Sequence record: ON185587.1
Direction: 5' to 3' (one strand)
DNA: 50,988 nt
Source: Escherichia phage EC167
Positions 31,066-47,573 of the stretch are shown piece by piece (the first letter of the stretch is position 1; every line of letters begins with the position of its first letter). Below the pieces are notes generated by a model. It saw nothing but the letters and a program-made list of their open reading frames with translations. It was not told the DNA's origin and ran no database searches. The translations under genes were made by a program, and so were the position numbers.

Positions 31066-31791
31066 ATGGCTAAAGATATTTTAGATAAAGACACCCATGA
31101 CGCATTAGTTAGCTTTGAGCAGTTGGAGAGAGAAACATTTATAGGGAATGCCCTTGCAACTGGAGGCCATTACCAGGCAGTAAAGCCAAATCAATATTAT
31201 AAGGTAAGCGGCAACCGATACGCTGGAAGCACCACGCCGGACGTTGTGCGAGATATGTGGAGCACGCCTCAAGAGATCGTGGAGTGGATGGAATCAGAAT
31301 TTGGTGAATACGATCTCGACGCGGCAGCAAGCCAGGAAAACGCAGTTTGCGAGAAGTTCTATAGCAAGGAGACAAACTGCTTAAAGCGTTGGTGGGGTAG
31401 CAACAAGCACGTATGGCTTAACCCGCCGTACAGCAACCCAACTCCATTTATCAAGAAAGCAATTGAGCAAATGGAGCACAACAACCAAATTGATGTTTTG
31501 TTGCCAGCCGACAACTCTACAGCATGGTTTTATGAGGCGCAGAAAAACGCGGCTGAAATCATCTGGATCACTGGCGAGGTTTACGAAGAGGGTGGAGTAG
31601 AATACTCCCGCACCGGAAGAATCGCCTTTGTGTCTGGATTGACTGGTGAGCCTGTGCAGGGCAACAACAAGGGAAGCGTGATTTTTGTCATGCGCAAACT
31701 TAAAGAAGGCGAGGAGCAGAAAACGCGATACGTTAAGATCAGCGATATTTGCCCTTCTGTAACAGAACGTCGCGCACGCAAACGGAGCTAA
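31066..31791 (+). CDS. dam: DNA N6-adenine methyltransferase (phage Dam type)
   Basis: 241 aa with NPPYS catalytic motif IV and conserved aromatic N-terminal region. Confidence 0.75.
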   Translation: MAKDILDKDTHDALVSFEQLERETFIGNALATGGHYQAVKPNQYYKVSGNRYAGSTTPDVVRDMWSTPQEIVEWMESEFGEYDLDAAASQENAVCEKFYSKETNCLKRWWGSNKHVWLNPPYSNPTPFIKKAIEQMEHNNQIDVLLPADNSTAWFYEAQKNAAEIIWITGEVYEEGGVEYSRTGRIAFVSGLTGEPVQGNNKGSVIFVMRKLKEGEEQKTRYVKISDICPSVTERRARKRS

Positions 31792-32308: not shown

Positions 32309-32540
32309 GCAAGGAAGAGATGCGGTATGGAATCACGCTAAAGAATGCGGTATTGCCGACGATATAAAGAAGATCGCGCAATACTTTGATATTGCAGATG
32401 TGAGCATAATTAGCGGCGATAAGATGACTTTCCTCAAGGAAAGGCCGCGAAAAATGGTAAGAGTTCCAGCAGTTCCAACAAAAATTGATTTCAAATCTGT
32501 AATCGACAGCAGCAGAGAGCAAAGGAAAAGATTTAAATGA
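32298..32540 (+). CDS. hypothetical protein
   Basis: 80 aa from ATG 32298 (GGAGG RBS); ORF-track start 32250 also possible. Confidence 0.35.
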   Translation: MKVEQGRDAVWNHAKECGIADDIKKIAQYFDIADVSIISGDKMTFLKERPRKMVRVPAVPTKIDFKSVIDSSREQRKRFK

Positions 32541-33022
32541 TAAATTGGAGTGATTATTTTGAATATAGAAATGGAATACTTTACTGGAAAGTAAGGAGAA
32601 ATGGGAGAAATGGAGGAGTCAAGCCTGGAGACGTTGCAGGGTGCAAAAATGAATATGGATATGTTTTAATAGGATTTAATGGAAAACTGCACTACAGACA
32701 TTCAATAGTTTGGGAAATGCACAACGGTAAGATTCCAGAAGGATTTGTCATAGATCATAAAAACCCCGTTTGTGATGGCGAGGAGGCTAATGACAATATC
32801 GACAACCTTAGAATAATACGTCATTCAGACAACCTTAGAAAAGGTTGCGGTAGAGTTAGAAAAAGCAATACAAGCGGAATAACTGGCGTTATGTATAATA
32901 AAAGAGATGATCTATGGGTAGCTTCAATATGCGTAAACTCAAATAGAATATCAAAATCATTCAAATCAATGGATGATGCTATAAATCAGAGGATGATTTG
33001 GGAATCAGAATACATAAAATGA
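32537..33022 (+). CDS. HNH homing endonuclease with AP2 DNA-binding domain
   Basis: HNH motif (HRHSIVWEMHNG..IDHKN..DNLR) and AP2-like SGITGV...W segment; AT-rich codon usage; paralogue of 38162 and 39622 genes. Confidence 0.7.
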   Translation: MINWSDYFEYRNGILYWKVRRNGRNGGVKPGDVAGCKNEYGYVLIGFNGKLHYRHSIVWEMHNGKIPEGFVIDHKNPVCDGEEANDNIDNLRIIRHSDNLRKGCGRVRKSNTSGITGVMYNKRDDLWVASICVNSNRISKSFKSMDDAINQRMIWESEYIK

Positions 33023-35912: not shown

Positions 35913-36308
35913 TCATGTGATATTGAATTTACGGCGCAGTGCTTCAAGATCTTGTCTATTAGCTTTTGCCTGGAACAACTCATCATCGCCCATCTCCCCT
36001 ATTCTAGCCATATCCCTGATCCAGACGTTGCGCATACCATCCAGGCTATACAATTCGAATCCGAAAGGCCGCTTTGACGATCCTTTGGACCAGTATTTTC
36101 CGCAGACCCCATCTATATAACCAGCCGTCATCATTCTTGCGCAAAATTCCTTAGATGCAAGGCTGGCGAACATTCTCGGCGTAAGTCCGGCGGCCCGTGC
36201 GAGCCGCTCACATTCTCTATGCTGATAGATAAATTTGGCTATGTGCTGCCTGTTAAACCAGTCGTATGACTCACACCATTTATACAGATCAAGCAAAAAC
36301 ATAATCAT
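35913..36308 (-). CDS. hypothetical protein translationally coupled to DUF3987-like NTPase
   Basis: 131 aa; start ATG overlaps upstream stop (ATGA). Confidence 0.45.
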   Translation of the reverse strand: MIMFLLDLYKWCESYDWFNRQHIAKFIYQHRECERLARAAGLTPRMFASLASKEFCARMMTAGYIDGVCGKYWSKGSSKRPFGFELYSLDGMRNVWIRDMARIGEMGDDELFQAKANRQDLEALRRKFNIT

Positions 36309-37885
36309 CCCAGCAGTATTGGATTGACAAAAATAACACCATTAATCACACAAACATAATTTCTTTCTTCCAGCATTGGCAGCAAGTGCCCTTCTATCCT
36401 CTTCATTACGCCAGCCTGACCAACGAAAGGTTTTACCTTTCTCGCTGATTCGTACAGGGCGCGAATATTCAGGATCCCTTTGTTCGCCTTGCCGTGCCTC
36501 GTGATCAATTCAATCAATTTACCCATTTCAGCATCATCACCAGCATAACCAGAAGCATTGGCGGCGCTAATGTATGTTTTGCTCAATTCCTGAAACATGA
36601 TCAACGCCTCTTGCATTGTTTCCACGTCGATCTCTTTCGACTTCTGCGGGTATCCGGCAGGATTAAACCAGTTGCGGATAACATGCAGGACGGAAGCAAG
36701 CCTGATCACCTGTTTATCCATTTTACCCAGCGCACCGCGTAACATTGTATGAGAATACTTTCCGCCGTCTGCAAGATGCGGTTCCATATCCTGGCGAGCA
36801 ATGTTGAGCACTCGCATAGCTGAACGGCTTATTTTCAGCGATATATTTGATTCGCTCATGATGTTATGCACCAATTGATAATATTGGGCCTTCAATTCAG
36901 GATCCACCGCCTCATAGGTAGAATCACCATTTTCATCAATGAATGAGCGACGGCCTAAGAATGATTCCTCACGGACCAACAAAAAGCGCTCACTCACACC
37001 GATACCGCGCGATCCAGCGTCCATGATTCCGCTTATCGTTTCATCCTGGGCTATAACGCTCATACATCCAAGTGCGCGAAAACTCATGTTATTGTCAGCA
37101 TTAGCGCGGGCAATTGATACGTGACCATTATCCCACGCCTTAAGCACTAGCTCACTGTTAGTCTTCCTTTCGCTATTGGCATAGGTCAAGCCTAACAGGC
37201 TGTTAATACTTGTTGCTTCGTCAGATATTACGGCAAAGTTACCTTGCTTGTTGTTGATTTTCGCCAAGCCTTCTGGAGTGGTATCTGAAACAGGGAAAGT
37301 TATATCACACATCTTTTCCAGCTTCTCCTCCAGATCCTCTTTTTCCTGGTATAGAGATTCCATATCAGCGCCTGATCTTTCGCTTTTCATCTCCTTTGCA
37401 AGACCTGCCAACTTTGCCTGTATTTTCTTTCTTTCCTTGCGGCGTTGCTCGTTGATCTTCTCAACTTCCGCAATCATCGGAGCAATAGCCATGCTGTTGA
37501 TCGCAGATTTACCAGTTGACGGCGGCTGGCTTGTAACGACGTAAAGCGCAGTCGGCTGATCGGTTCCGTGATAGTCAACTGTAAAGCGTCCAAGCATAGC
37601 GGCAGAAATGCAGCCGATAAAGTGCATGTAAGCCGATGATTCAGGGAATTGAACTGATCGCGAAATGCTGCGTGATAACTTGCCGACAACATCAATATCA
37701 TTACCAAGAGAAATTACGGGGTAGCGATCGTGACCGCTATTTACATCCTTTACGTCGCCCCAAAAGCTGGACGACTGGCGATAGCCGTTAGCCTGAATTG
37801 ATACGCGAACTGGCGAAAGGTTCTGGCTTTCAGCCATAGCGATTATTTGCTGTGGAGTTAATTTGTTCGTTTCTAATGAAAACAT
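36305..37885 (-). CDS. P-loop NTPase, DUF3987 / replicative-helicase-like
   Basis: 526 aa; deviant Walker A TSQPPSTGKSAI, Walker B FAVISDEAT; strong RBS AAGGAG; family assignment from memory of motif, not searched. Confidence 0.4.
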   Translation of the reverse strand: MFSLETNKLTPQQIIAMAESQNLSPVRVSIQANGYRQSSSFWGDVKDVNSGHDRYPVISLGNDIDVVGKLSRSISRSVQFPESSAYMHFIGCISAAMLGRFTVDYHGTDQPTALYVVTSQPPSTGKSAINSMAIAPMIAEVEKINEQRRKERKKIQAKLAGLAKEMKSERSGADMESLYQEKEDLEEKLEKMCDITFPVSDTTPEGLAKINNKQGNFAVISDEATSINSLLGLTYANSERKTNSELVLKAWDNGHVSIARANADNNMSFRALGCMSVIAQDETISGIMDAGSRGIGVSERFLLVREESFLGRRSFIDENGDSTYEAVDPELKAQYYQLVHNIMSESNISLKISRSAMRVLNIARQDMEPHLADGGKYSHTMLRGALGKMDKQVIRLASVLHVIRNWFNPAGYPQKSKEIDVETMQEALIMFQELSKTYISAANASGYAGDDAEMGKLIELITRHGKANKGILNIRALYESARKVKPFVGQAGVMKRIEGHLLPMLEERNYVCVINGVIFVNPILLG

Positions 37886-37937
37886 TCGTTAGCTTCTCCT
37901 TTGTGGGCCGTAAATTTTAACGGCCCAATACTACCCC

Positions 37938-37958
37938 GTTTTGTCAAAAAGTGCTATT
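37938..37958 (-). promoter_or_regulatory. conserved intergenic motif variant (TTGACA form)
   Basis: Minus strand: AATAGCACTTTTTGACAAAAC + dyad GGGCCG..CGGCCC. Confidence 0.5.
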
Positions 37959-38175
37959 TGATCCGCTCTATTGCAACCAGAAGTCGATCAGGCTGGCGGT
38001 CGCTGTAGCATTCTCCTGTAATCCCATCCTTAAACGTAAAGTAAAGCGCCTTATGATATGAAAAACCAATCAGCCAACCTACCGCAGTTTTTTTGATGGG
38101 CCTGACTATATCGCCAGGCTTGAAGGTTTTTGTTGCTGAATTAGTAACCTTATAGCGATATTCAGTCTTGATCAT
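37954..38175 (-). CDS. hypothetical protein
   Basis: 73 aa from ATG overlapping HNH stop (ATGATCAAGACTGA); stop TAG inside motif. Confidence 0.4.
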   Translation of the reverse strand: MIKTEYRYKVTNSATKTFKPGDIVRPIKKTAVGWLIGFSYHKALYFTFKDGITGECYSDRQPDRLLVAIERIK

Positions 38176-38683
38176 AAGGCTTCTCGCTTCCGTGGTTTTC
38201 GTGGAATCCGTACTTTTTCCAAATAGCATCTCTTGATGATACAGCGCTATCAATTGATGCATGATAACCACCAGAAATACACCTGCCATCAACAGTTACT
38301 TGTACGCACCATTTAGACACCCTCTTATTCAACATCACGCCAGTATAACCAGATTTATTTGTCGATCTCCTTGTGTGGTTTTGTGAGTTTTGTTTTCTTG
38401 TGACAAGCCGAAGGTTTTCGATTCTATTGTCATCTCTTATGTGATTCACGTGATCTATCTCCATTCCTTTTGGTATTGTTTTTCCATGCATCCACCAAAC
38501 AATCCAATGCGCCGGATACTCTCTGCCACCAATACCTATACGTCTATATCCGTTTTTAGTTATATAACCTGCCTCATCGCCAATTTTTGCCCGTCTTCCT
38601 GATGGGCTTTTCCATAATAGACGACCATTTTCATATATAAATAAATTTAGAAGTACTTGCCTTGAAATTCCGCTATTGCACAT
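38162..38683 (-). CDS. HNH homing endonuclease with AP2 domain
   Basis: HNH motif (HWIVWWMHG..IDHVNH..DNR..NLR) and AP2-like SGYTGV segment. Confidence 0.7.
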   Translation of the reverse strand: MCNSGISRQVLLNLFIYENGRLLWKSPSGRRAKIGDEAGYITKNGYRRIGIGGREYPAHWIVWWMHGKTIPKGMEIDHVNHIRDDNRIENLRLVTRKQNSQNHTRRSTNKSGYTGVMLNKRVSKWCVQVTVDGRCISGGYHASIDSAVSSRDAIWKKYGFHENHGSEKPYDQD

Positions 38684-38874
38684 TTAAATCCAACCTCGCA
38701 TCTTTCAAGAGTCCATTGCTCACCTTGAGCATCAACAACGTAACCAGCTACAGCGCCTAAAACCCTTCCCATAATTATCTCATAGCGTTTACCTTCCTTA
38801 AAATGCTGACCTGGCTTTACGCTGTTCATGTGGTGGTAAACTTTTGTGCATTTTATTGTTCTCTTCTTTGTCAT
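38647..38874 (-). CDS. small protein, paralogue family member A
   Basis: 75 aa; RBS AAGGAG; N-terminal K-C-x-x-x-Y...KPG motif shared with 40884 and 44932 genes. Confidence 0.5.
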   Translation of the reverse strand: MTKKRTIKCTKVYHHMNSVKPGQHFKEGKRYEIIMGRVLGAVAGYVVDAQGEQWTLERCEVGFKCAIAEFQGKYF

Positions 38875-38929
38875 CGTTTATTTCTCCTTTCGTTTCGGTG
38901 AAGTGATTATGCAAGGTTTTTACATCTGG

Positions 38930-38950
38930 CTTTTAACAAAAAGTGCTATT
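38930..38950 (-). promoter_or_regulatory. conserved intergenic motif (minus orientation)
   Basis: Minus strand: AATAGCACTTTTTGTTAAAAG ... GCATAAT. Confidence 0.5.
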
Positions 38951-39632
38951 TTGAGTTTGACTCAAAGACGGCGCGAGCAAAGCCGCGCGGAGTGAGTGAG
39001 CGTAGTTGCTTTGTTCTGGCAGACTTACCGCCTAAAAACTTCCAACCCCAAAAGAACATTACGCCCTCATCATTGGATAACGGCTTGCGTTCGGGTTCTG
39101 TAAATCCGTTGCCGCACCAGATAGCAGTCCTTTTTGTGTAGCCATCCTTTATCGGCATCTTGGGGTGAAAAGATCCATCGGATTCGTCCAGGTAGTTACC
39201 AAAATCTCGAGGATTGAAATAAAAATCAGGCTTTCGCCATAGCGTTGATAGTCGGCCTACAGGATTCTCAGCCATCCAGGGGACACCGAAATGATTCCCG
39301 ACAGTTTCAACCATGATTGCATTTTTGAGCGCAACCTGAATATCATCATCGCTTCGCACGTGCTTGATTCCTGATTGGGCAAACATGGTGCAGTCTGGAA
39401 ATCCAAATACAATATCTGGTTTTGGAATACCAATCTTACTGATTCTTTCAATGAAATTTTCATCAATCCACATATTTACATAATGCAGATTTTCATGTTT
39501 CATCTTGATGAAATATTCTCCGTGATTGCCTTCATCAGCGTTAAAGCAATAGCATTGATAGCCAGCCTTCGCATATTCAAGCAGCATGATTCCAGATCCA
39601 TCAAACATTGAGTAAGCAACTTTATTTCCCAT
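38946..39632 (-). CDS. minimal cytosine-C5 methyltransferase-like protein
   Basis: ~228 aa; motif I FDGSG, motif IV-like GFPDCTMF (canonical GFPCQ), ETV for ENV, C-terminal RSLTPRGFARAV resembling the LTPRE motif; almost no target-recognition domain; start at MGNK preferred. Confidence 0.45.
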   Translation of the reverse strand: MGNKVAYSMFDGSGIMLLEYAKAGYQCYCFNADEGNHGEYFIKMKHENLHYVNMWIDENFIERISKIGIPKPDIVFGFPDCTMFAQSGIKHVRSDDDIQVALKNAIMVETVGNHFGVPWMAENPVGRLSTLWRKPDFYFNPRDFGNYLDESDGSFHPKMPIKDGYTKRTAIWCGNGFTEPERKPLSNDEGVMFFWGWKFLGGKSARTKQLRSLTPRGFARAVFESNSK

Positions 39633-40149
39633 GATTTTTATGATACCCCAATTCATTCTCGGCTTTACGTTTTGCGGCAACAGCATCTCCAAAACTGGAA
39701 AAACAACCTATATAAATCCTACTTCCTCGCTTTCCGCCTCCAACCCTTACAACCCATTTGCCATGTTTATTTTTATGCACACATGGTATGCCACTTTTAT
39801 TGTTTTTCTGCTTTGATGTGTTTCGCATATTTCCTTTGTGATCTTTTAACTCAAAGTTTATTGCTCTGTTATCAGTCGTAATGTGATTTACGTGATCAAC
39901 CTCCTTTCCTTCAGGTATAGGCCCATAGTGCATTTCATAGCATATTCTATGAATTTTCAGGTTATAACGTTTTCCGTTTACAGTAAGTGCAGTTTCTAAA
40001 TATCTGCCACCACTACCCAAAGAGCCAACCTCATTACCAGCATTGCAAGCATTCCATTGTTTAGCTCTTGATTGGTGAATATCTTTTCTTTCTTTCCAGA
40101 ACAGCTTTCCAGTTTCTGGATTGTATGTAAAGTAATCATGCCAATTCAT
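39622..40149 (-). CDS. HNH homing endonuclease with AP2 domain
   Basis: HNH motif (HRICYEMHYG..VDHVNH..DNR..N) and AP2-like SGIPCV segment. Confidence 0.7.
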   Translation of the reverse strand: MNWHDYFTYNPETGKLFWKERKDIHQSRAKQWNACNAGNEVGSLGSGGRYLETALTVNGKRYNLKIHRICYEMHYGPIPEGKEVDHVNHITTDNRAINFELKDHKGNMRNTSKQKNNKSGIPCVHKNKHGKWVVRVGGGKRGSRIYIGCFSSFGDAVAAKRKAENELGYHKNHGK

Positions 40150-40157
40150 TCATTACC

Positions 40158-40382
40158 TCAAAACGGAAAACAGCGCGGACAACTAGGATCGAAATCGCAT
40201 CCACAATCATTAACAATCATATTTGGATCTGCAAATATTGCGCTTGATTCAAGATCCATATCCATATCACCTAAAGCCTCATCAAGAGTCTTAATTTTAT
40301 ATGCCACTTCAAGCGCCGCCTCTTTATTTAGTCCGGCATCTTCTGCCATTTGAAGGCGCTCAAAAAAACCGTCTTGACTCAT
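40158..40382 (-). CDS. hypothetical protein with C-terminal Cys cluster
   Basis: 74 aa; acidic; CGCDFDPSCPRC at C-terminus. Confidence 0.4.
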   Translation of the reverse strand: MSQDGFFERLQMAEDAGLNKEAALEVAYKIKTLDEALGDMDMDLESSAIFADPNMIVNDCGCDFDPSCPRCFPF

Positions 40383-40493
40383 CAGATCATCACCTTAAAC
40401 ATAATATAAATTAATGCCACACATGACGCCGCAAGAGTGACTACAAGCATAAAAACAACAACAGAAAGAGCAATATAAGTAATTTTATTCATC
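40383..40493 (-). CDS. putative 36-aa hydrophobic membrane peptide
   Basis: Not in ORF track; MNKITYIALSVVVFMLVVTLAASCVALIYIMFKVMI; stop overlaps next start; coordinates approximate. Confidence 0.25.
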
Positions 40494-40538
40494 GTTCATT
40501 CCTATATTTAAGGGCGCGCATTAGCGCCCATCAATTTA

Positions 40539-40775
40539 TTATGCAGCTTTCCAATTTTGAATATAGAATGAGTATTCATTCAGCATTTCTTTTAATCCAG
40601 CCTCGCTGAATTTACGCAACTTACCGCCAGGATGAATACCGACAGTGTAACCGCCCTTACCTTCTGTGATGGTTAACTGGTTGATTCCGCTAGATTTATC
40701 AAGTCGAACAATAACGCGGTGATGTGCCGTAACAGTCGCCATAATATTTTCAACTTTGATTGATTTTGCAGTCAT
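40539..40775 (-). CDS. hypothetical protein
   Basis: 78 aa from internal ATG with GAGGA RBS (ORF-track start 40847). Confidence 0.4.
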   Translation of the reverse strand: MTAKSIKVENIMATVTAHHRVIVRLDKSSGINQLTITEGKGGYTVGIHPGGKLRKFSEAGLKEMLNEYSFYIQNWKAA

Positions 40776-40883
40776 TCTATATTCCTCAGTTAAAGTAAGA
40801 GTGTCGTGGCGCTCTTTTTCCGTCGCCGCCGTAATGGTCATTTGCAACCGCCACCATCCAAGCGTTTTTGAAAATAAATAGCC

Positions 40884-41096
40884 TCATTTCTTATTTTTCA
40901 GCTTAAATTTATGACCTGGAACACCAGCGCCAATATACCCATCGTTGTATTCCATTAAATAAAGGTGAAGACCATTATCTGAAATTACATGAGGATCTTC
41001 TTTGAGATTTCCCATTAGTGGATATTCTTTTCCGCGCGTGAATCTCCATGTTGAGTTATAAGTTTCTACGCATTTAAGTTTTAATTGCTTTGCCAT
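40884..41096 (-). CDS. small protein, paralogue family member B
   Basis: 70 aa; shares N-terminal KLKCVETY...F.RG..Y pattern with 38647 and 44932 genes. Confidence 0.45.
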   Translation of the reverse strand: MAKQLKLKCVETYNSTWRFTRGKEYPLMGNLKEDPHVISDNGLHLYLMEYNDGYIGAGVPGHKFKLKNKK

Positions 41097-41377
41097 TATG
41101 CGATCCCAGTTACGTTAAAACTTACAGCCTTTGTTGCGCTAAATACATAAGAATCAACAGCGCCGCCAAATACACGAATTTTACACTGGCCGTACTGCGC
41201 ATTCATATTTCGCCAAACCGTTCTATTAGAGCAGAATGCGCTACCAGTCTTAATAAGCGTATCCATCTCTTTTCTTAGATCGCGATAGTCAAGCCAGAAT
41301 CTAAAGGCGCGCTGTTTAATTCGCGCCGCCTTGATTTTTTCTCTTGCGCTATTGAAATCATTCTTTTCGTATGCCAT
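41096..41377 (-). CDS. hypothetical protein
   Basis: 93 aa; GGAG RBS; overlaps downstream start. Confidence 0.4.
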   Translation of the reverse strand: MAYEKNDFNSAREKIKAARIKQRAFRFWLDYRDLRKEMDTLIKTGSAFCSNRTVWRNMNAQYGQCKIRVFGGAVDSYVFSATKAVSFNVTGIA

Positions 41378-41514
41378 TAAATGATCTCCATGTATGTTTC
41401 AAAGCCATTTAACTTGAACAGGCCGTTTTCACATTTGCGCACGTTCCAAGTTAGCCCTGGCGGCCCTGCAAAATGCCTCCGCCAGATCCAAATCATTTTC
41501 GGTAATCACCGCCA

Positions 41515-41787
41515 TTACTTCTTGATCTCCTCACTGATAAATTTCAGCACCTGACGCAAGAAAACCTCGTTGCTGATAGTCGCTGGCAATTCTTCTTTCA
41601 CTTCTTGCGGCAGATAGATATTGCCGTGCCAGGTCAAGCAATCGTAGTTGATACGATAAGAGCAAAGCAACTCGCAATCGTTATCTCCTTCCCAAATGCA
41701 GAGTTGCAGAACATCGCCAAAATCTTCAACAGTCAGATCCAGACCGTGACGCTTAGCGAAATTGAAAGTGGTTTTGCTGATGTTCAT
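41515..41787 (-). CDS. hypothetical protein, first gene of minus-strand early operon
   Basis: 90 aa; AGGAG RBS; motif-type promoter upstream. Confidence 0.45.
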   Translation of the reverse strand: MNISKTTFNFAKRHGLDLTVEDFGDVLQLCIWEGDNDCELLCSYRINYDCLTWHGNIYLPQEVKEELPATISNEVFLRQVLKFISEEIKK

Positions 41788-42458
41788 TGCTATCTCCTGA
41801 TCGGTTCGTTTTGATGTGTGTAATGTACCCGATCAGGTGGCCTGAGTTTTAACAAAAAGTGCTATTTGACGGTTAGCGCCAGGATTGCGATCGAAATAAT
41901 CATAAGTAATCATTCGTAATCAAATCACGTCAAAATGATGATTGCCTTTGCAAATTTGATGAGAAAAGCAATCACGTTTAATCATTGGTTGCAGGGGAGA
42001 TAGTGAAACCTTCCCCTCTCGCCTCACTTTTTTGCCTGGCTGTCAGTGGTTGTTATGTTCCGTTCCTGCGTGTTCTTTTGTTGACCTTCCGCAAAATACG
42101 ATAACAAAAAATAACAAACAATACCTATATAATACATTGAAAAATAAGGATTATTTATTTATATGTATCTATATATTCTCTTTTGTTATCTTGGTTATTG
42201 TGGTATTTGGTGGGGGTATATAGTTTTTGTGTATCTGTATGTGTGTATGGGTATGTAGGGGTATATATATCTATATGGCGCTTTCCGCGAGAAAACTTCG
42301 ATAACAAGCAATGATAACATTGATTTATAAGGAAAAATAACGCCTATATTGTTATTGTGCCACCATATAAAATTGATAAAACACGCGGGAACAAGAAAAA
42401 ACAGTTGACACATTAAATAGCATTATTGATAATGCCCACACCTAACAACCAGGAGGCA
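41788..42458. promoter_or_regulatory. AT-rich non-coding control region 2 (divergent promoters, iterons, dyads)
   Basis: 671 bp without credible ORF; TAATCAT repeats phased at 10 bp (41897, 41907, 41917) plus further copies; hairpin + U-tract at about 42003-42045; GT-rich repeats homologous to region 1; GGGAACAAGAAAAA box; TTGACA-17-GATAAT promoter for early genes. Confidence 0.6.
41846..41866 (-). promoter_or_regulatory. conserved intergenic motif (minus orientation)
   Basis: Minus strand: AATAGCACTTTTTGTTAAAAC upstream of 41787 gene. Confidence 0.5.
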
Positions 42459-42926
42459 GAAATGAGCGAGCAATCATTCACTGACACGCTGCGCCGTGCC
42501 GCTATTATGCTGGCTAATGGCGAGGAAGAGACGATCAAGATTCCTGACGCGTATTTGCAGGTCCACATGTTCGGCAAGAAGTCGGCAAGCAATCCGGCGG
42601 CCTACATTCGCCAGATCATGAGTCGAGTGCCAGAAGTCGCCGAGCGGGGGCGCGTATCCGTTACCCGTGACGTTTACGGGCCGGAAGATGAAAACTTCGG
42701 TAGCACTTTCTACGAGGTGCGGATTGTTGAAGGCCGTCGCAAGGTTTACAACAAAGAGGCACTGGAAAGGGCAGTGCGCCAGGCTAAGCGCAAGGTTGCA
42801 GAGGCGATCATTGATATGTCACCAAACCTGGCAAACTATGCGCCGGAAGAGTATGAAACGTTATCAAAGGCCGTCGCTGACTTTCACGCGATGATCAAAA
42901 AAACTTTCCTGGAGGATGAACAATGA
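42459..42926 (+). CDS. hypothetical early protein (first gene of plus-strand early operon)
   Basis: 155 aa from ATG 42459 (RBS CAGGAGG); immediately downstream of TTGACA-17-GATAAT promoter. Confidence 0.5.
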   Translation, partial: EMSEQSFTDTLRRAAIMLANGEEETIKIPDAYLQVHMFGKKSASNPAAYIRQIMSRVPEVAERGRVSVTRDVYGPEDENFGSTFYEVRIVEGRRKVYNKEALERAVRQAKRKVAEAIIDMSPNLANYAPEEYETLSKAVADFHAMIKKTFLEDEQ

Positions 42927-45152: not shown

Positions 45153-45362
45153 ATGGACAAGAACAAAACAGCAAAATATAAATTCACCGACGACTACGGA
45201 GACACCATCGACGTTTATCAGCGTGGAAATAAGATCTTTATAGATGGCACTTTCGAATATGGCCGGATGCCAGACTTTCGGGGAATACTTTCGGCAGATA
45301 GCGCGCGACGCATGGCGAACGTGTTAAATAAACTGGCGGCAAAGATTGAGGCGATGCAATGA
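45153..45362 (+). CDS. hypothetical protein
   Basis: 69 aa. Confidence 0.4.
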   Translation: MDKNKTAKYKFTDDYGDTIDVYQRGNKIFIDGTFEYGRMPDFRGILSADSARRMANVLNKLAAKIEAMQ

Positions 45363-46084
45363 AAAAATACACTTTCGAACTGTGGGGCAAGAAGTACGAA
45401 TTAATGACCAGTAAGCCGATTGTTATCGTTGACATGGACGGCACGCTATCGGACGGATCGCATCGCTTGCACTTGCTGCCAACTGAAAACTTGCACCTTA
45501 CCGAAAGCTGGTCCAAGTTCAACAAGGCCGCCGCCAAAGATGCGCCGATTAGTAGCACGATTGCTGTTATTAACGGATTGTGGGTATCTGGATTTGCAAT
45601 CGTTATCCTGACCGGACGCAGCGACGAAGTTCGCCAGGAAACGAAACACTGGCTTAATGATAATGGAGTCAAGCACGACGCGTTAATCATGCGCCGCAAG
45701 GAAGATAACAGAAAAGACACGATCATCAAAGAGGAAGTCTTGCGAGCTATCGGACTGGAAAACATTGTGTGCGCTTTTGACGATTCGCCGAACGTGGTTA
45801 AGCACTTCCGCAGCTTGGGTATTACAACCTATCAGGTCACGGAATACGACAAGCCACACGCTCACATACAATCTCACGGCGTGGAATCAATCAAGATAAC
45901 GAAGCGCGCCCGATTCGTTGGCAGCAAAGATATCCTTGTCAATGCCAGCTTTACCAGAGGAATAGCCTATGACGTTGTTTCTTATCATGACAAGAGTTTA
46001 TGGTTCATGATGATTCTGGATGCGCCTGGTCATTCAATCATAGTGACGGCGATTTTGTTAATGCGTAATAGCACTTTTTGTTAA
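45359..46084 (+). CDS. HAD-superfamily phosphatase (nucleotidase / polynucleotide 3'-phosphatase-like)
   Basis: DxDGT motif I (IVIVDMDGTLSD), downstream T/S and K/D motifs of HAD fold; overlaps upstream stop. Confidence 0.55.
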   Translation: MKKYTFELWGKKYELMTSKPIVIVDMDGTLSDGSHRLHLLPTENLHLTESWSKFNKAAAKDAPISSTIAVINGLWVSGFAIVILTGRSDEVRQETKHWLNDNGVKHDALIMRRKEDNRKDTIIKEEVLRAIGLENIVCAFDDSPNVVKHFRSLGITTYQVTEYDKPHAHIQSHGVESIKITKRARFVGSKDILVNASFTRGIAYDVVSYHDKSLWFMMILDAPGHSIIVTAILLMRNSTFC

Positions 46085-46982: not shown

Positions 46983-47573
46983 ATGAAACGAGACATTATT
47001 ATCCTTAATGGGCCGCCTGGCTGTGGAAAGGACACTATTGCAGCTTACCTAACGGGCCATCGTTACCCAGCGGTTAAGGCATCATTCAAGCAACCTATGT
47101 TCGACATTGCTTTTTCTATGCTTGGCCCGACTCGATACGATGAATTTATGGACCTGTACAACGACAGAGAGCAAAAAGAAAATCCTCAAGTTATCTTAGG
47201 CGGCAAGTCACCTCGACAATTCATGATCTGGATTAGCGAGGATGTAATGAAGCCAGTTTTTGGGGATCACTATTTCGGGCGTCGAATGGTTGAAGAGATT
47301 CACGATATGTACCGAGATTTGGCGGTTGTGATCAGTGATGGCGGATTCCCCGAAGAAATCAAGCCGATTGTTAATGCAGGGCATGAAGTGCATATTTGCC
47401 GATTGCATCGCGACGGCTTCACGTTTGCTGGCGATTCGCGAAACTATATTGACCTGAGCGGTTATCACTATCGAATCCATCACTATGATTTCCACTTGCA
47501 GGACGGCAAGCAGGAACTTGCTGTAAACGAGATCGTCAATACTGTCAAATGGAAACACACACAGATTAAATAG
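46983..47573 (+). CDS. P-loop nucleotide kinase (dNMP kinase-like)
   Basis: Walker A GPPGCGKDT at N-terminus; size ~196 aa; resembles phage deoxynucleoside monophosphate kinases by motif only. Confidence 0.5.
   Translation: MKRDIIILNGPPGCGKDTIAAYLTGHRYPAVKASFKQPMFDIAFSMLGPTRYDEFMDLYNDREQKENPQVILGGKSPRQFMIWISEDVMKPVFGDHYFGRRMVEEIHDMYRDLAVVISDGGFPEEIKPIVNAGHEVHICRLHRDGFTFAGDSRNYIDLSGYHYRIHHYDFHLQDGKQELAVNEIVNTVKWKHTQIK

What the first reader, a model, noticed from the sequence alone, without database searches (positions are those of the whole stretch)
38946..39632. Minimal cytosine-C5-methyltransferase-like protein with altered catalytic motifs in the HNH-rich accessory region
The ~228-aa product carries motif I (FDGSG), a motif IV-like GFPDCTMF where canonical enzymes have GFPCQ, ETV in place of ENV, and a C-terminal RSLTPRGFARAV resembling the LTPRE motif, but essentially no target-recognition domain; it is far smaller than typical C5 methyltransferases. 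It sits between two HNH homing endonuclease genes. Together with the Dam methylase (31066-31791), a dNMP-kinase-like gene (46983-47573) and a HAD phosphatase (45359-46084), it raises the possibility of a non-standard cytosine modification or a nucleotide-level methylation pathway rather than an ordinary DNA methyltransferase.
Basis: partly seen in the sequence, partly recalled or inferred. Interest (0 to 1): 0.7.

Follow-up and report, generated by a model that had tools for sequence, protein, structure and literature searches.

The report
Compact phage Dcm-like cytosine methyltransferase
This gene encodes a member of a widespread family of unusually small phage DNA cytosine-C5 methyltransferases; a relative at the same position in a sister phage is reported to make 5-methylcytosine and to set off the bacterial retron Ec86 defence, so the gene is essentially ordinary and not part of an exotic base-modification pathway.

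Summary
The ORF is real: 38946-39632 on the minus strand, 228 aa. The window is a T1-like coliphage (Drexlerviridae, Warwickvirus), 98.5% identical to phage BEK12A over the 80% of this region that aligns.

Motifs I, IV, VI, VIII and IX are present in canonical order and spacing. The true equivalent is the invariant E122-N-P. The small size is confirmed: there is no separate target-recognition domain and no motif X. This holds across about 1,800 sequence clusters, so it is a family trait.

The orthologous gene of phage KarlJaspers (45% identical, same slot) is the one reported as the retron Ec86 trigger. The tested enzyme, from a 95.4%-identical strain, raised 5mC in msDNA.

The nearby "pathway" genes are an ordinary Dam, a PNKP-type end-healing phosphatase and a dNMP-kinase-like NTPase. 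No hypermodification genes or cmoA are present. The non-standard-modification idea is therefore not supported.

Still open: sequence specificity, the Pro-to-Asp change before the catalytic Cys, and how so small an enzyme reads DNA.

The parts
38946..39632 (-). Compact Dcm-like C5-cytosine DNA methyltransferase gene (228 aa, ATG start)
39591..39605 (-). Motif I, F10-D-G-S-G14 (AdoMet-binding loop after strand 1)
   Evidence: Aligned to SLFSGAG of M.HaeIII and to DLFAGIGG of E. coli Dcm by hhalign. Nearly invariant among close homologues.
39387..39401 (-). Motif IV, F78-P-D80-C81-T82 (catalytic Cys; Asp replaces the usual Pro)
   Evidence: C81 aligns with the catalytic Cys of M.HaeIII and with C82 of the K42/KarlJaspers enzyme. 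C81 is invariant. Position 80 is D in 89/120 close homologues but P in 87/111 diverse representatives.
39255..39269 (-). Motif VI, E122-N-P-V-G (the true ENV equivalent)
   Evidence: Invariant E-N-P. Aligned to ENV of Dcm by hhalign. Equals E128 of K42 Dcm. Lies at the end of predicted strand 119-124.
39117..39140 (-). Motif VIII-like Y165-T-K167-R168-T169-A-I-W172
   Evidence: Y165, K167, T169 and W172 are invariant. K167/R168 correspond to K175/K176, which were mutated in the K42 study.
39021..39110 (-). About 30-aa segment (aa 175-204) occupying the place of the target-recognition domain
   Evidence: VIII-to-IX spacing is 45 aa against 126 in Dcm. This segment differs between our allele (FFWGWKFLGGKS) and the K42/atuna allele (NPGWAKTGGKS).
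38964..39002 (-). Motif IX-like R211-S-L-T-P-R-G-F-A-R-A-V-F; the protein ends 5 aa later, with no separate motif X
   Evidence: Matches RKLHPRECARVMG of M.HhaI and RRLTPRECARLMG of Dcm. R211, S212, P215 and G217 are nearly invariant. The last 87 nt are conserved at DNA level even across alleles.
39622..40149 (-). Upstream HNH_3 homing endonuclease; its stop codon overlaps the methyltransferase ATG
   Evidence: PF13392 E 7.2e-14 and phrog_99. Overlap aatcATGggaaaTAA. Absent from atuna and mar001J1.
38162..38683 (-). Downstream HNH_3 homing endonuclease
   Evidence: PF13392 E 7.5e-18 and phrog_99 E 1.5e-61. Absent from PeterMerian and atuna.
39033..40149 (.). Swapped cassette (HNH plus the 5' ~600 nt of the methyltransferase gene) relative to phage mar001J1
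   Evidence: The flanks are 98.4% and 96.6% identical to mar001J1, but this block has no DNA homology. mar001J1 carries the K42/atuna-type allele instead.

Best explanation
The gene encodes an orphan, phage-borne, AdoMet-dependent DNA cytosine-C5 methyltransferase of a compact (about 215-245 aa) family. The family consists essentially of the catalytic Rossmann-type domain alone.

Inferred mechanism, by homology with M.HhaI and DNMT3:
- Cys81 attacks C6 of a flipped-out cytosine.
- Glu122 (E-N-P) protonates or holds N3/N4.
- Lys167/Arg168 contact the base or the backbone.
- The methyl group of AdoMet, bound by the F-D-G-S-G loop, is transferred to C5.

The roughly 30-aa segment between motifs VIII and IX and the C-terminal RSLTPRGFARAVF helix replace the usual target-recognition domain, the hinge and motif X.

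The likely benefit to the phage is protection of its DNA from cytosine-sensitive restriction. The cost is that this activity is what retron Ec86 (Eco1) senses, through methylation of its msDNA stem-loop.

Shown: fold, motif order, conservation and orthology. Reported by others for a 45%-identical orthologue: 5mC formation and retron triggering. Inferred: activity of this allele, its target sequence (CCWGG is only assumed) and the anti-restriction role.
For: - phrog_757 'DNA methyltransferase' E 1.4e-77 over aa 3-227.
- AF2 model pLDDT 90.1, pTM 0.89.
- Foldseek best hits are DNMT3A/3B methyltransferase domains, E about 1e-7.
- Motifs I, IV, VI, VIII and IX are in canonical order. Spacings are 68/44/44 aa against 82/49/50 in E. 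coli Dcm.
- hhalign puts motifs I, IV and VI in register with Dcm.
- The catalytic Cys and the E-N-P Glu are invariant in 120 close homologues and in 110 representatives at or below 50% mutual identity.
- dN/dS is 0.11 against PeterMerian.
- One relative (P0064) passes Pfam's PF00145 threshold.
- Orthology: KarlJaspers bas06_0055 (711 bp) lies in the same slot and is 45% identical over the full length, with C82/E128/K175/K176 matching our C81/E122/K167/R168.
- The study was done on phage K42, a strain 95.4% identical in genome to KarlJaspers. Its escaper mutations map to the 711-bp dcm. Expression is toxic only with Ec86. LC-MS shows raised 5mC in msDNA. The C82A/E128A/K175A/K176A mutant is inert (bioRxiv 10.1101/2023.08.16.553469).
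- Bacterial homologues sit in prophages without a restriction-enzyme partner.
- CCWGG (110 sites) and GATC (294) are not avoided in the genome, whereas EcoRI, EcoRV, PstI and EcoKI sites are strongly depleted.
Against: - This allele is only 45-47% identical to the tested one. It differs in the mini-TRD segment and has Asp instead of the near-universal Pro before the catalytic Cys.
- No Pfam, NCBIfam or PDB sequence hit reaches significance for this protein itself.
- No motif X (GNxV) is detectable, and the second Arg of motif VIII (QxRxR) has no obvious counterpart.
- CCWGG specificity was assumed, not measured, in the retron paper. The experiments were done in a dcm+ host.
- The BASEL authors found no simple link between these methyltransferase genes and restriction resistance.
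Confidence: 0.75

Rival explanations
1. One reading: the enzyme makes a non-standard cytosine adduct (for example carboxymethyl from Cx-SAM, as phage CmoX does), or acts at the nucleotide level in a pathway with Dam, the dNMP-kinase-like gene and the HAD phosphatase.
For: - The active site is non-canonical (P-D-C, no motif X).
- E. coli supplies Cx-SAM through its own CmoA, so a coliphage would not need cmoA (PMC12783734).
- An Arg (R220) lies in the C-terminal helix.
Against: - CmoX is defined by SPPC plus an Arg at the M.HhaI N304 position. Here the motif is FPDC, and R220 is variable across the family (R28, K19, Q12, L11, I11; A and E also occur).
- There is no cmoA or ligase in the window. 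No hypermodification genes are annotated in PeterMerian.
- The K42 orthologue, which has the same C-terminus, gave 5mC.
- The HAD gene is a PNKP end-healing phosphatase, and no such gene is annotated in PeterMerian, which has the same allele.
Confidence: 0.04
2. It is a catalytically weakened or dead methyltransferase-like protein that acts by binding DNA or AdoMet (a decoy, regulator or AdoMet sink) rather than by methylating.
For: - The Pro of the Pro-Cys dipeptide is replaced by Asp.
- There is no motif X and no target-recognition domain.
- Sequence matches to PF00145 fail for this protein.
- No restriction-resistance pattern correlates with the gene.
Against: - Cys81, Glu122, Lys167 and the AdoMet loop are strictly conserved across about 1,800 clusters. 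dN/dS is 0.11. This is not expected if catalysis were dispensable.
- The catalytic-residue mutant of the orthologue loses its phenotype and its 5mC signal.
Confidence: 0.08
3. It keeps C5-methyltransferase chemistry but its real substrate is not sequence-specific duplex DNA. The substrate could be single-stranded or hairpin DNA (replication intermediates, msDNA) or RNA/tRNA, as with DNMT2.
For: - There is no recognisable target-recognition domain.
- The only demonstrated substrate of the orthologue is a stem-loop in msDNA. The host's own Dcm evidently does not activate the retron at the same CCTGG.
Against: - The msDNA stem-loop is double-stranded at the proposed site, and mutating CCTGG abolished defence.
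- Nothing in the locus points to RNA targets.
Confidence: 0.1

Closest known systems
Dcm of Drexlerviridae phage KarlJaspers/K42 (bas06_0055; trigger of retron Ec86/Eco1; Wang et al., bioRxiv 10.1101/2023.08.16.553469, later titled 'DNA methylation activates retron Ec86 filaments for antiphage defense')
   Same: - Same genomic slot, between the 74-aa ORF and the helicase module.
- Same compact length and full-length alignment at 45% identity.
- Same catalytic residues (C82/E128/K175/K176 = C81/E122/K167/R168).
- Nearly identical C-terminal RSLTPRGFARAVFE-N-K tail.
   Different: - FPPCT there, FPDCT here.
- The ~30-aa segment replacing the recognition domain is different (NPGWAKTGGKS against FFWGWKFLGGKS).
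- Our allele comes with an upstream HNH gene as one swapped cassette.
- Our allele has not been tested for activity or retron triggering.
PeterMerian (Bas05) bas05_0050 'Dcm-like C5 cytosine methyltransferase' and the BEK12A QGH77059 'hypothetical protein'
   Same: Same allele: 96% and 99.6% aa identity, same neighbours.
   Different: Essentially none. PeterMerian lacks the downstream HNH. These are annotations only, with no experiments.
DNMT3A/DNMT3B catalytic domains (best structural matches)
   Same: - C5-MTase Rossmann fold with the smallest known recognition domain (the size comparison is from general knowledge).
- From memory of the DNMT3A sequence, a similar W-G-N turn after motif VIII.
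   Different: - 13-15% identity.
- DNMT3 has motif X, a ~50-aa recognition loop, regulatory domains and obligate oligomerisation.
- Whether the phage enzyme dimerises is unknown.
Canonical bacterial type II C5-methyltransferases (E. coli Dcm, M.HhaI, M.HaeIII; Pfam PF00145)
   Same: Order and spacing of motifs I, IV, VI, VIII and IX. Same catalytic Cys and Glu.
   Different: - No separate target-recognition domain (45 aa against 107-126 aa between motifs VIII and IX).
- No motif X.
- Asp instead of Pro before the Cys.
- K-R-T instead of R-x-R.
- Below the Pfam threshold.
CmoX DNA cytosine C5-carboxymethyltransferase of Synechococcus phage S-B43 (PDB 8YF3; PMC12783734)
   Different: - CmoX has SPPC, a full recognition domain, and Arg350 at the motif X Asn position. 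It is usually accompanied by a phage cmoA gene (4,257 cmoA found among the contigs of 5,615 CmoX candidates).
- None of these features is found here.

Membership tests
DNA cytosine-C5 methyltransferases (PF00145 / M.HhaI-Dcm-DNMT fold) | Class I Rossmann-type C5-MTase catalytic fold | tested here: met
DNA cytosine-C5 methyltransferases (PF00145 / M.HhaI-Dcm-DNMT fold) | Motif I FxGxG AdoMet loop | tested here: met
   F10-D-G-S-G14 aligns with M.HaeIII SLFSGAG and with Dcm FAGIGG.
DNA cytosine-C5 methyltransferases (PF00145 / M.HhaI-Dcm-DNMT fold) | Motif IV catalytic Cys | tested here: met
   C81 aligns with the catalytic Cys of M.HaeIII. It is invariant in 120 + 110 homologues.
DNA cytosine-C5 methyltransferases (PF00145 / M.HhaI-Dcm-DNMT fold) | Pro-Cys dipeptide in motif IV | tested here: not met
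   The sequence is P79-D80-C81. Position 80 is D in 89/120 close homologues but P in 87/111 diverse family representatives, so the Asp is a derived state of this sub-clade.
DNA cytosine-C5 methyltransferases (PF00145 / M.HhaI-Dcm-DNMT fold) | Motif VI ENV glutamate | tested here: met
E122-N-P is invariant and aligned to ENV of Dcm.
DNA cytosine-C5 methyltransferases (PF00145 / M.HhaI-Dcm-DNMT fold) | Motif VIII QxRxR | tested here: inconclusive
   Y-T-K167-R168-T169, with K167 and T169 invariant. A basic pair is present, but there is no clear counterpart of the second Arg.
DNA cytosine-C5 methyltransferases (PF00145 / M.HhaI-Dcm-DNMT fold) | Separate target-recognition domain between motifs VIII and IX | tested here: not met
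   45 aa from motif VIII to IX, against 126 in Dcm and about 107 in M.HhaI. The same holds in about 1,800 clusters of the family.
DNA cytosine-C5 methyltransferases (PF00145 / M.HhaI-Dcm-DNMT fold) | Motif IX (RxLTPRE) and motif X (GNxV) at the C-terminus | tested here: inconclusive
   Motif IX is met (R211-S-L-T-P-R-G-F-A-R). No GNxV is present and only 17 aa follow the start of IX. Whether the last helix (216-226, with the conserved N226) structurally replaces motif X could not be determined.
DNA cytosine-C5 methyltransferases (PF00145 / M.HhaI-Dcm-DNMT fold) | Pfam PF00145 gathering score | tested here: not met
   No hit at E<1 for this protein. Relative P0064 passes (27.3 against 22 bits), but only on profile positions 3-100.
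DNA cytosine-C5 methyltransferases (PF00145 / M.HhaI-Dcm-DNMT fold) | AdoMet-dependent formation of 5-methylcytosine in DNA | not testable with these tools
   Reported by LC-MS for the 45%-identical K42 orthologue only.
Compact phage Dcm-like family (PHROG 757; includes the retron Ec86 trigger) | Full-length profile match and family length of about 215-245 aa, ending just after RSLTPRGFARAVF..N | tested here: met
   phrog_757 E 1.4e-77, aa 3-227. 607 homologues and 1,493 phage records of the same length. Profile search: 1,802 clusters.
Compact phage Dcm-like family (PHROG 757; includes the retron Ec86 trigger) | Residues mutated in the K42 study (C82, E128, K175, K176) | tested here: met
   C81, E122, K167 and R168 in the pairwise alignments with atuna and KarlJaspers.
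Compact phage Dcm-like family (PHROG 757; includes the retron Ec86 trigger) | Same genomic position in Drexlerviridae (Tempevirinae) | tested here: met
   Flanking DNA is homologous to PeterMerian, mar001J1 and atuna. KarlJaspers has the same gene order by annotation.
Compact phage Dcm-like family (PHROG 757; includes the retron Ec86 trigger) | Activates retron Ec86 by msDNA methylation | not testable with these tools
   Shown only for the K42 allele.
CmoX DNA C5-carboxymethyltransferases | SPPC motif, plus Arg at the M.HhaI N304 (motif X) position binding the Cx-SAM carboxylate | tested here: not met
   The motif here is FPDC and there is no motif X. The only nearby Arg (R220) is variable in the family. 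Criteria are taken from PMC12783734.
CmoX DNA C5-carboxymethyltransferases | Phage-encoded cmoA (and often a cmoY ligase) in the genome | tested here: not met
   tblastn and phmmer of E. coli CmoA against the window found nothing. None is annotated in PeterMerian.

The most novel reading that the evidence does not exclude
The Asp-Cys (P-D-C) sub-clade to which this allele belongs could be a truly minimal C5-methyltransferase that reads DNA in a new way. It has no recognition domain and no motif X. It might read DNA through a DNMT3-like dimer, or by recognising DNA shape or hairpins. Its specificity (or even its transferred group) could differ from that of the K42-type allele it replaces by HNH-linked cassette exchange. 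Phages of one genus would then swap methylation specificities at a single locus.
Probability: 0.15. Interest if true: 0.55.

Novelty: new member of a known kind. Interest (0 to 1): 0.25.

Why it matters
The finding itself matters little. The gene is already annotated as a Dcm-like methyltransferase in near-identical phages, and its family has a published role as the retron Ec86 trigger.

It remains useful as an example of how small a working C5-methyltransferase can be: about 225 aa, no recognition domain, no motif X. It also shows that two alleles only 45% identical occupy the same locus in closely related T1-like phages. One of them travels with a homing endonuclease.

Three things would be worthwhile but incremental. 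The first is to determine the target sequence of both alleles. The second is to test whether the Asp-for-Pro allele still triggers retron Ec86. The third is to solve a structure with DNA.

Tried and rejected
- Pfam, NCBIfam and PDB sequence searches with the single protein, and with two family profiles, gave no significant hit. The best were M.HaeIII at E 0.027 and DNMT2 at E 0.73. Relatedness to PF00145 is visible only through the fold, through one relative (P0064), and weakly by hhalign (E 0.01).
- I considered that R220 in G-F-A-R-A-V-F might be the counterpart of M.HhaI N304 / CmoX R350, which would suggest Cx-SAM use. I rejected this as a family feature because position 220 is variable (R, K, Q, L, I, A, E). 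The segment also matches motif IX better than motif X.
- I could not establish residue-level structural equivalences, such as whether the last helix replaces motif X or which residue plays the R165 role. The tools return no coordinates or structural alignments.
It was repeated without that sequence.
- One literature search was badly posed and returned nothing relevant. A search for 'Dcm-like' plus phage found no further functional work.
- The promoter/terminator scan of 37800-42500 found fewer promoter-like sites than the shuffled controls, and none upstream of the gene on the minus strand.
- Counting CCWGG sites (not avoided) is compatible with CCWGG protection but cannot establish specificity.

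Full report
**What is in the sequence**

An ORF occupies exactly 38946-39632, but on the minus strand. It has an ATG at 39632 and encodes 228 aa. A longer reading from a TTG at 39692 lies inside the upstream gene. Homologues do not support it, since they begin at the MGNK-equivalent position.

The stop codon of the upstream HNH gene overlaps the ATG (aatcATGggaaaTAA). This suggests translational coupling.

The window is a T1-like coliphage (Drexlerviridae, Tempevirinae, Warwickvirus). The region 38000-41000 is 98.5% identical to Escherichia phage BEK12A over 80% of its length. It matches about 140 phage records.

- FDGSG (aa 10-14), GFPDCTMF (aa 77-84) and RSLTPRGFARAV (aa 211-222) are all present.
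- phmmer against PDB sequences aligns SMFDGSG with SLFSGAG and FGFPDCTMF with IGGPPCQSW of M.HaeIII, Cys on Cys. The E-value is only 0.027.
ETV (aa 109-111) sits in the long predicted helix 95-115. The strand that follows (119-124) ends in E122-N-P-V-G.
- E-N-P is invariant in 120 close homologues and in 110 representatives at or below 50% mutual identity. hhalign puts it on ENV of E. coli Dcm.
- Spacings between motifs I-IV, IV-VI and VI-VIII are 68/44/44 aa, against 82/49/50 in Dcm. From VIII to IX the spacing is 45 aa against 126. Only 17 aa follow the start of motif IX, against 72.

So the protein has no separate target-recognition domain and no room for a motif X (FGNSV in M.HhaI and Dcm).

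**Fold**

An AlphaFold2 model built on 50 homologues is confident (pLDDT 90.1, pTM 0.89). Foldseek's best PDB matches are DNMT3A/3B methyltransferase domains (E about 1e-7).

- DNMT3A
- CmoX
- M.MpeI
- M.HhaI
- ZMET2

Generic Rossmann enzymes come lower.

Sequence profiles are much weaker:

- Pfam, NCBIfam and PDB profile searches give nothing significant for this protein.
- One relative (P0064) passes the PF00145 threshold, on its N-terminal third only.

The PHROG match is unambiguous: phrog_757 "DNA methyltransferase", E 1.4e-77.

**The family**

- The word-indexed search found 607 homologues, all about 215-245 aa, from phages and prophages.
- tblastn found the gene in 1,493 phage records. 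These include Drexlerviridae, Dhillonvirus, rV5-like phages and other large phages of about 150 kb.
- A profile search of 1.84 billion representatives found 1,802 clusters (756 at E<=1e-10). Nearly all are 200-260 aa and end where the profile ends. Compactness is therefore a family trait, not a truncation.
- Invariant or nearly invariant positions are C81, T82, G88, E122, N123, P124, P141, Y165, K167, T169, W172, P180, R211, S212, P215 and G217.
- Position 80 is Pro in 87/111 diverse representatives but Asp in 89/120 close homologues. The P-D-C motif is a derived state of this sub-clade.
- dN/dS against the PeterMerian orthologue is 0.11.
- Bacterial copies lie in prophages with no restriction-enzyme neighbour.

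**What is already known**

The BASEL phage PeterMerian (Bas05) carries the same allele (96% aa). It is annotated "Dcm-like C5 cytosine methyltransferase".

The preprint [quoted passage not shown] (10.1101/2023.08.16.553469) is cited elsewhere as [quoted passage not shown]. It worked with phage K42, a strain 95.4% identical in genome to KarlJaspers. It reports the following:

- All Ec86 escapers of K42 disrupt a 711-bp dcm gene.
- Dcm expression is toxic only in the presence of Ec86.
- LC-MS shows increased 5mC in msDNA.
- A C82A/E128A/K175A/K176A mutant is inert.
- A CCTGG in the msDNA stem-loop is required.

I located the KarlJaspers gene (MZ501090, bas06_0055, 711 bp). It lies in the same slot and has exactly C82, E128 and K175/K176. 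It is 45% identical to our protein over its full length, matching our C81, E122 and K167/R168. It is 91% identical to the atuna allele.

The CCWGG specificity in that paper was assumed from E. coli Dcm, not measured, and the host was dcm+. The BASEL authors saw no simple link between these genes and restriction resistance.

**The supposed pathway**

- The Dam gene is an ordinary PF05869 Dam (E 1e-61).
- The "HAD phosphatase" is a PNKP-type polynucleotide 3'-phosphatase (PF25109; phrog_415 "polynucleotide kinase").
- The third gene matches phrog_139 "deoxynucleoside monophosphate kinase". It is annotated only as a P-loop NTPase in BASEL genomes.
- These genes lie 6-8 kb away on the other strand.
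- PeterMerian has the same methyltransferase allele but no polynucleotide kinase/phosphatase gene annotated. Its curated annotation lists no thymidylate-synthase-like, glycosyltransferase or TET genes.
- There is no cmoA homologue in the window.

I took the non-standard-chemistry idea seriously, because a natural phage C5-carboxymethyltransferase (CmoX) is now known. Its selectivity rests on an Arg replacing M.HhaI Asn304 (PMC12783734). Our family has no motif X. The only candidate Arg (R220) is variable across the family. The SPPC criterion is also not met.

**Locus dynamics**

Compared with phage mar001J1, the flanks 36000-39032 and 40150-41459 are 98.4% and 96.6% identical. The block 39033-40149 has no DNA homology. 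That block holds the upstream HNH gene plus the 5' ~600 nt of the methyltransferase gene. mar001J1 carries the K42/atuna-type allele there.

The junction lies in the conserved 3' end that encodes TKQLRSLTPRGFARAVF. The two flanking HNH genes are independently present or absent in relatives. A third paralogue lies at 32537-33022. This fits homing-endonuclease-associated cassette exchange, which is an inference.

**Verdict**

The interpretation as a possible novel modification pathway is not supported.

The best explanation (confidence 0.75) is an orphan, compact, AdoMet-dependent DNA C5-cytosine methyltransferase of a known phage family. It probably serves an anti-restriction role and doubles as the signal sensed by retron Ec86.

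Three questions remain open: the target sequence of this allele, the effect of Asp80, and how the enzyme reads DNA without a recognition domain or motif X.

Noticed in passing
window 39033-40149: This block (the upstream HNH gene plus the 5' ~600 nt of the methyltransferase gene) has no DNA homology to phage mar001J1, although both flanks are 96-98% identical. mar001J1 has the 45%-identical K42/atuna-type allele instead. The junction lies in the conserved 3' end of the gene. This looks like a homing-endonuclease-linked allele swap.
   Followed up: partly
window 32537-33022 (+), 38162-38683 (-), 39622-40149 (-): Three paralogous HNH_3 endonuclease genes (31-38% identical to each other). Each of the two flanking the methyltransferase gene is present or absent independently in close relatives: none flank dcm in atuna, one in PeterMerian, one in mar001J1.
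   Followed up: partly
whole window: Recognition sites of EcoRI (1 observed, 20.5 expected), EcoRV (1, 10.7), PstI (0, 13.1), EcoKI (0, 6.0) and EcoP1I (24, 50.6) are strongly depleted. GATC (294) and CCWGG (110) are not. This may explain the high restriction resistance reported for the near-identical BASEL phage PeterMerian better than its methyltransferases do.
   Followed up: partly
GenBank MG065638-MG065685 ('Campylobacter phage' records), matching window 38039-40383: About 39 records labelled Campylobacter jejuni phages carry T1-like coliphage sequence, 90-92% identical to this region. They are probably mislabelled or contaminant coliphages.
   Followed up: no
No polynucleotide kinase/phosphatase gene is annotated in PeterMerian, which carries the same methyltransferase allele.
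   Followed up: yes
window 39534-39548 (aa 29-33, CFNAD): The acidic residue expected at the end of strand 2 (motif II, ribose binding) is Asp in 106/111 diverse family representatives. It is Asn31 in this sub-clade, which has Asp33 two residues later instead.
   Followed up: no
BFVD entries A0A6J5SE15 and A0A6J5NPY6 (uncultured Caudovirales): The same compact methyltransferase fold (24-25% identity, TM 0.65-0.67) occurs as one domain of 1,100-1,400-aa helicase-like proteins.
   Followed up: no
window 38647-38874 (-) and 40158-40382 (-): Small conserved ORFs of unknown function (phrog_2684; phrog_9323) bracket the HNH-methyltransferase-HNH cluster. The 74-aa one is the conserved left neighbour of the methyltransferase gene in phages that lack the HNH insertion.
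   Followed up: no
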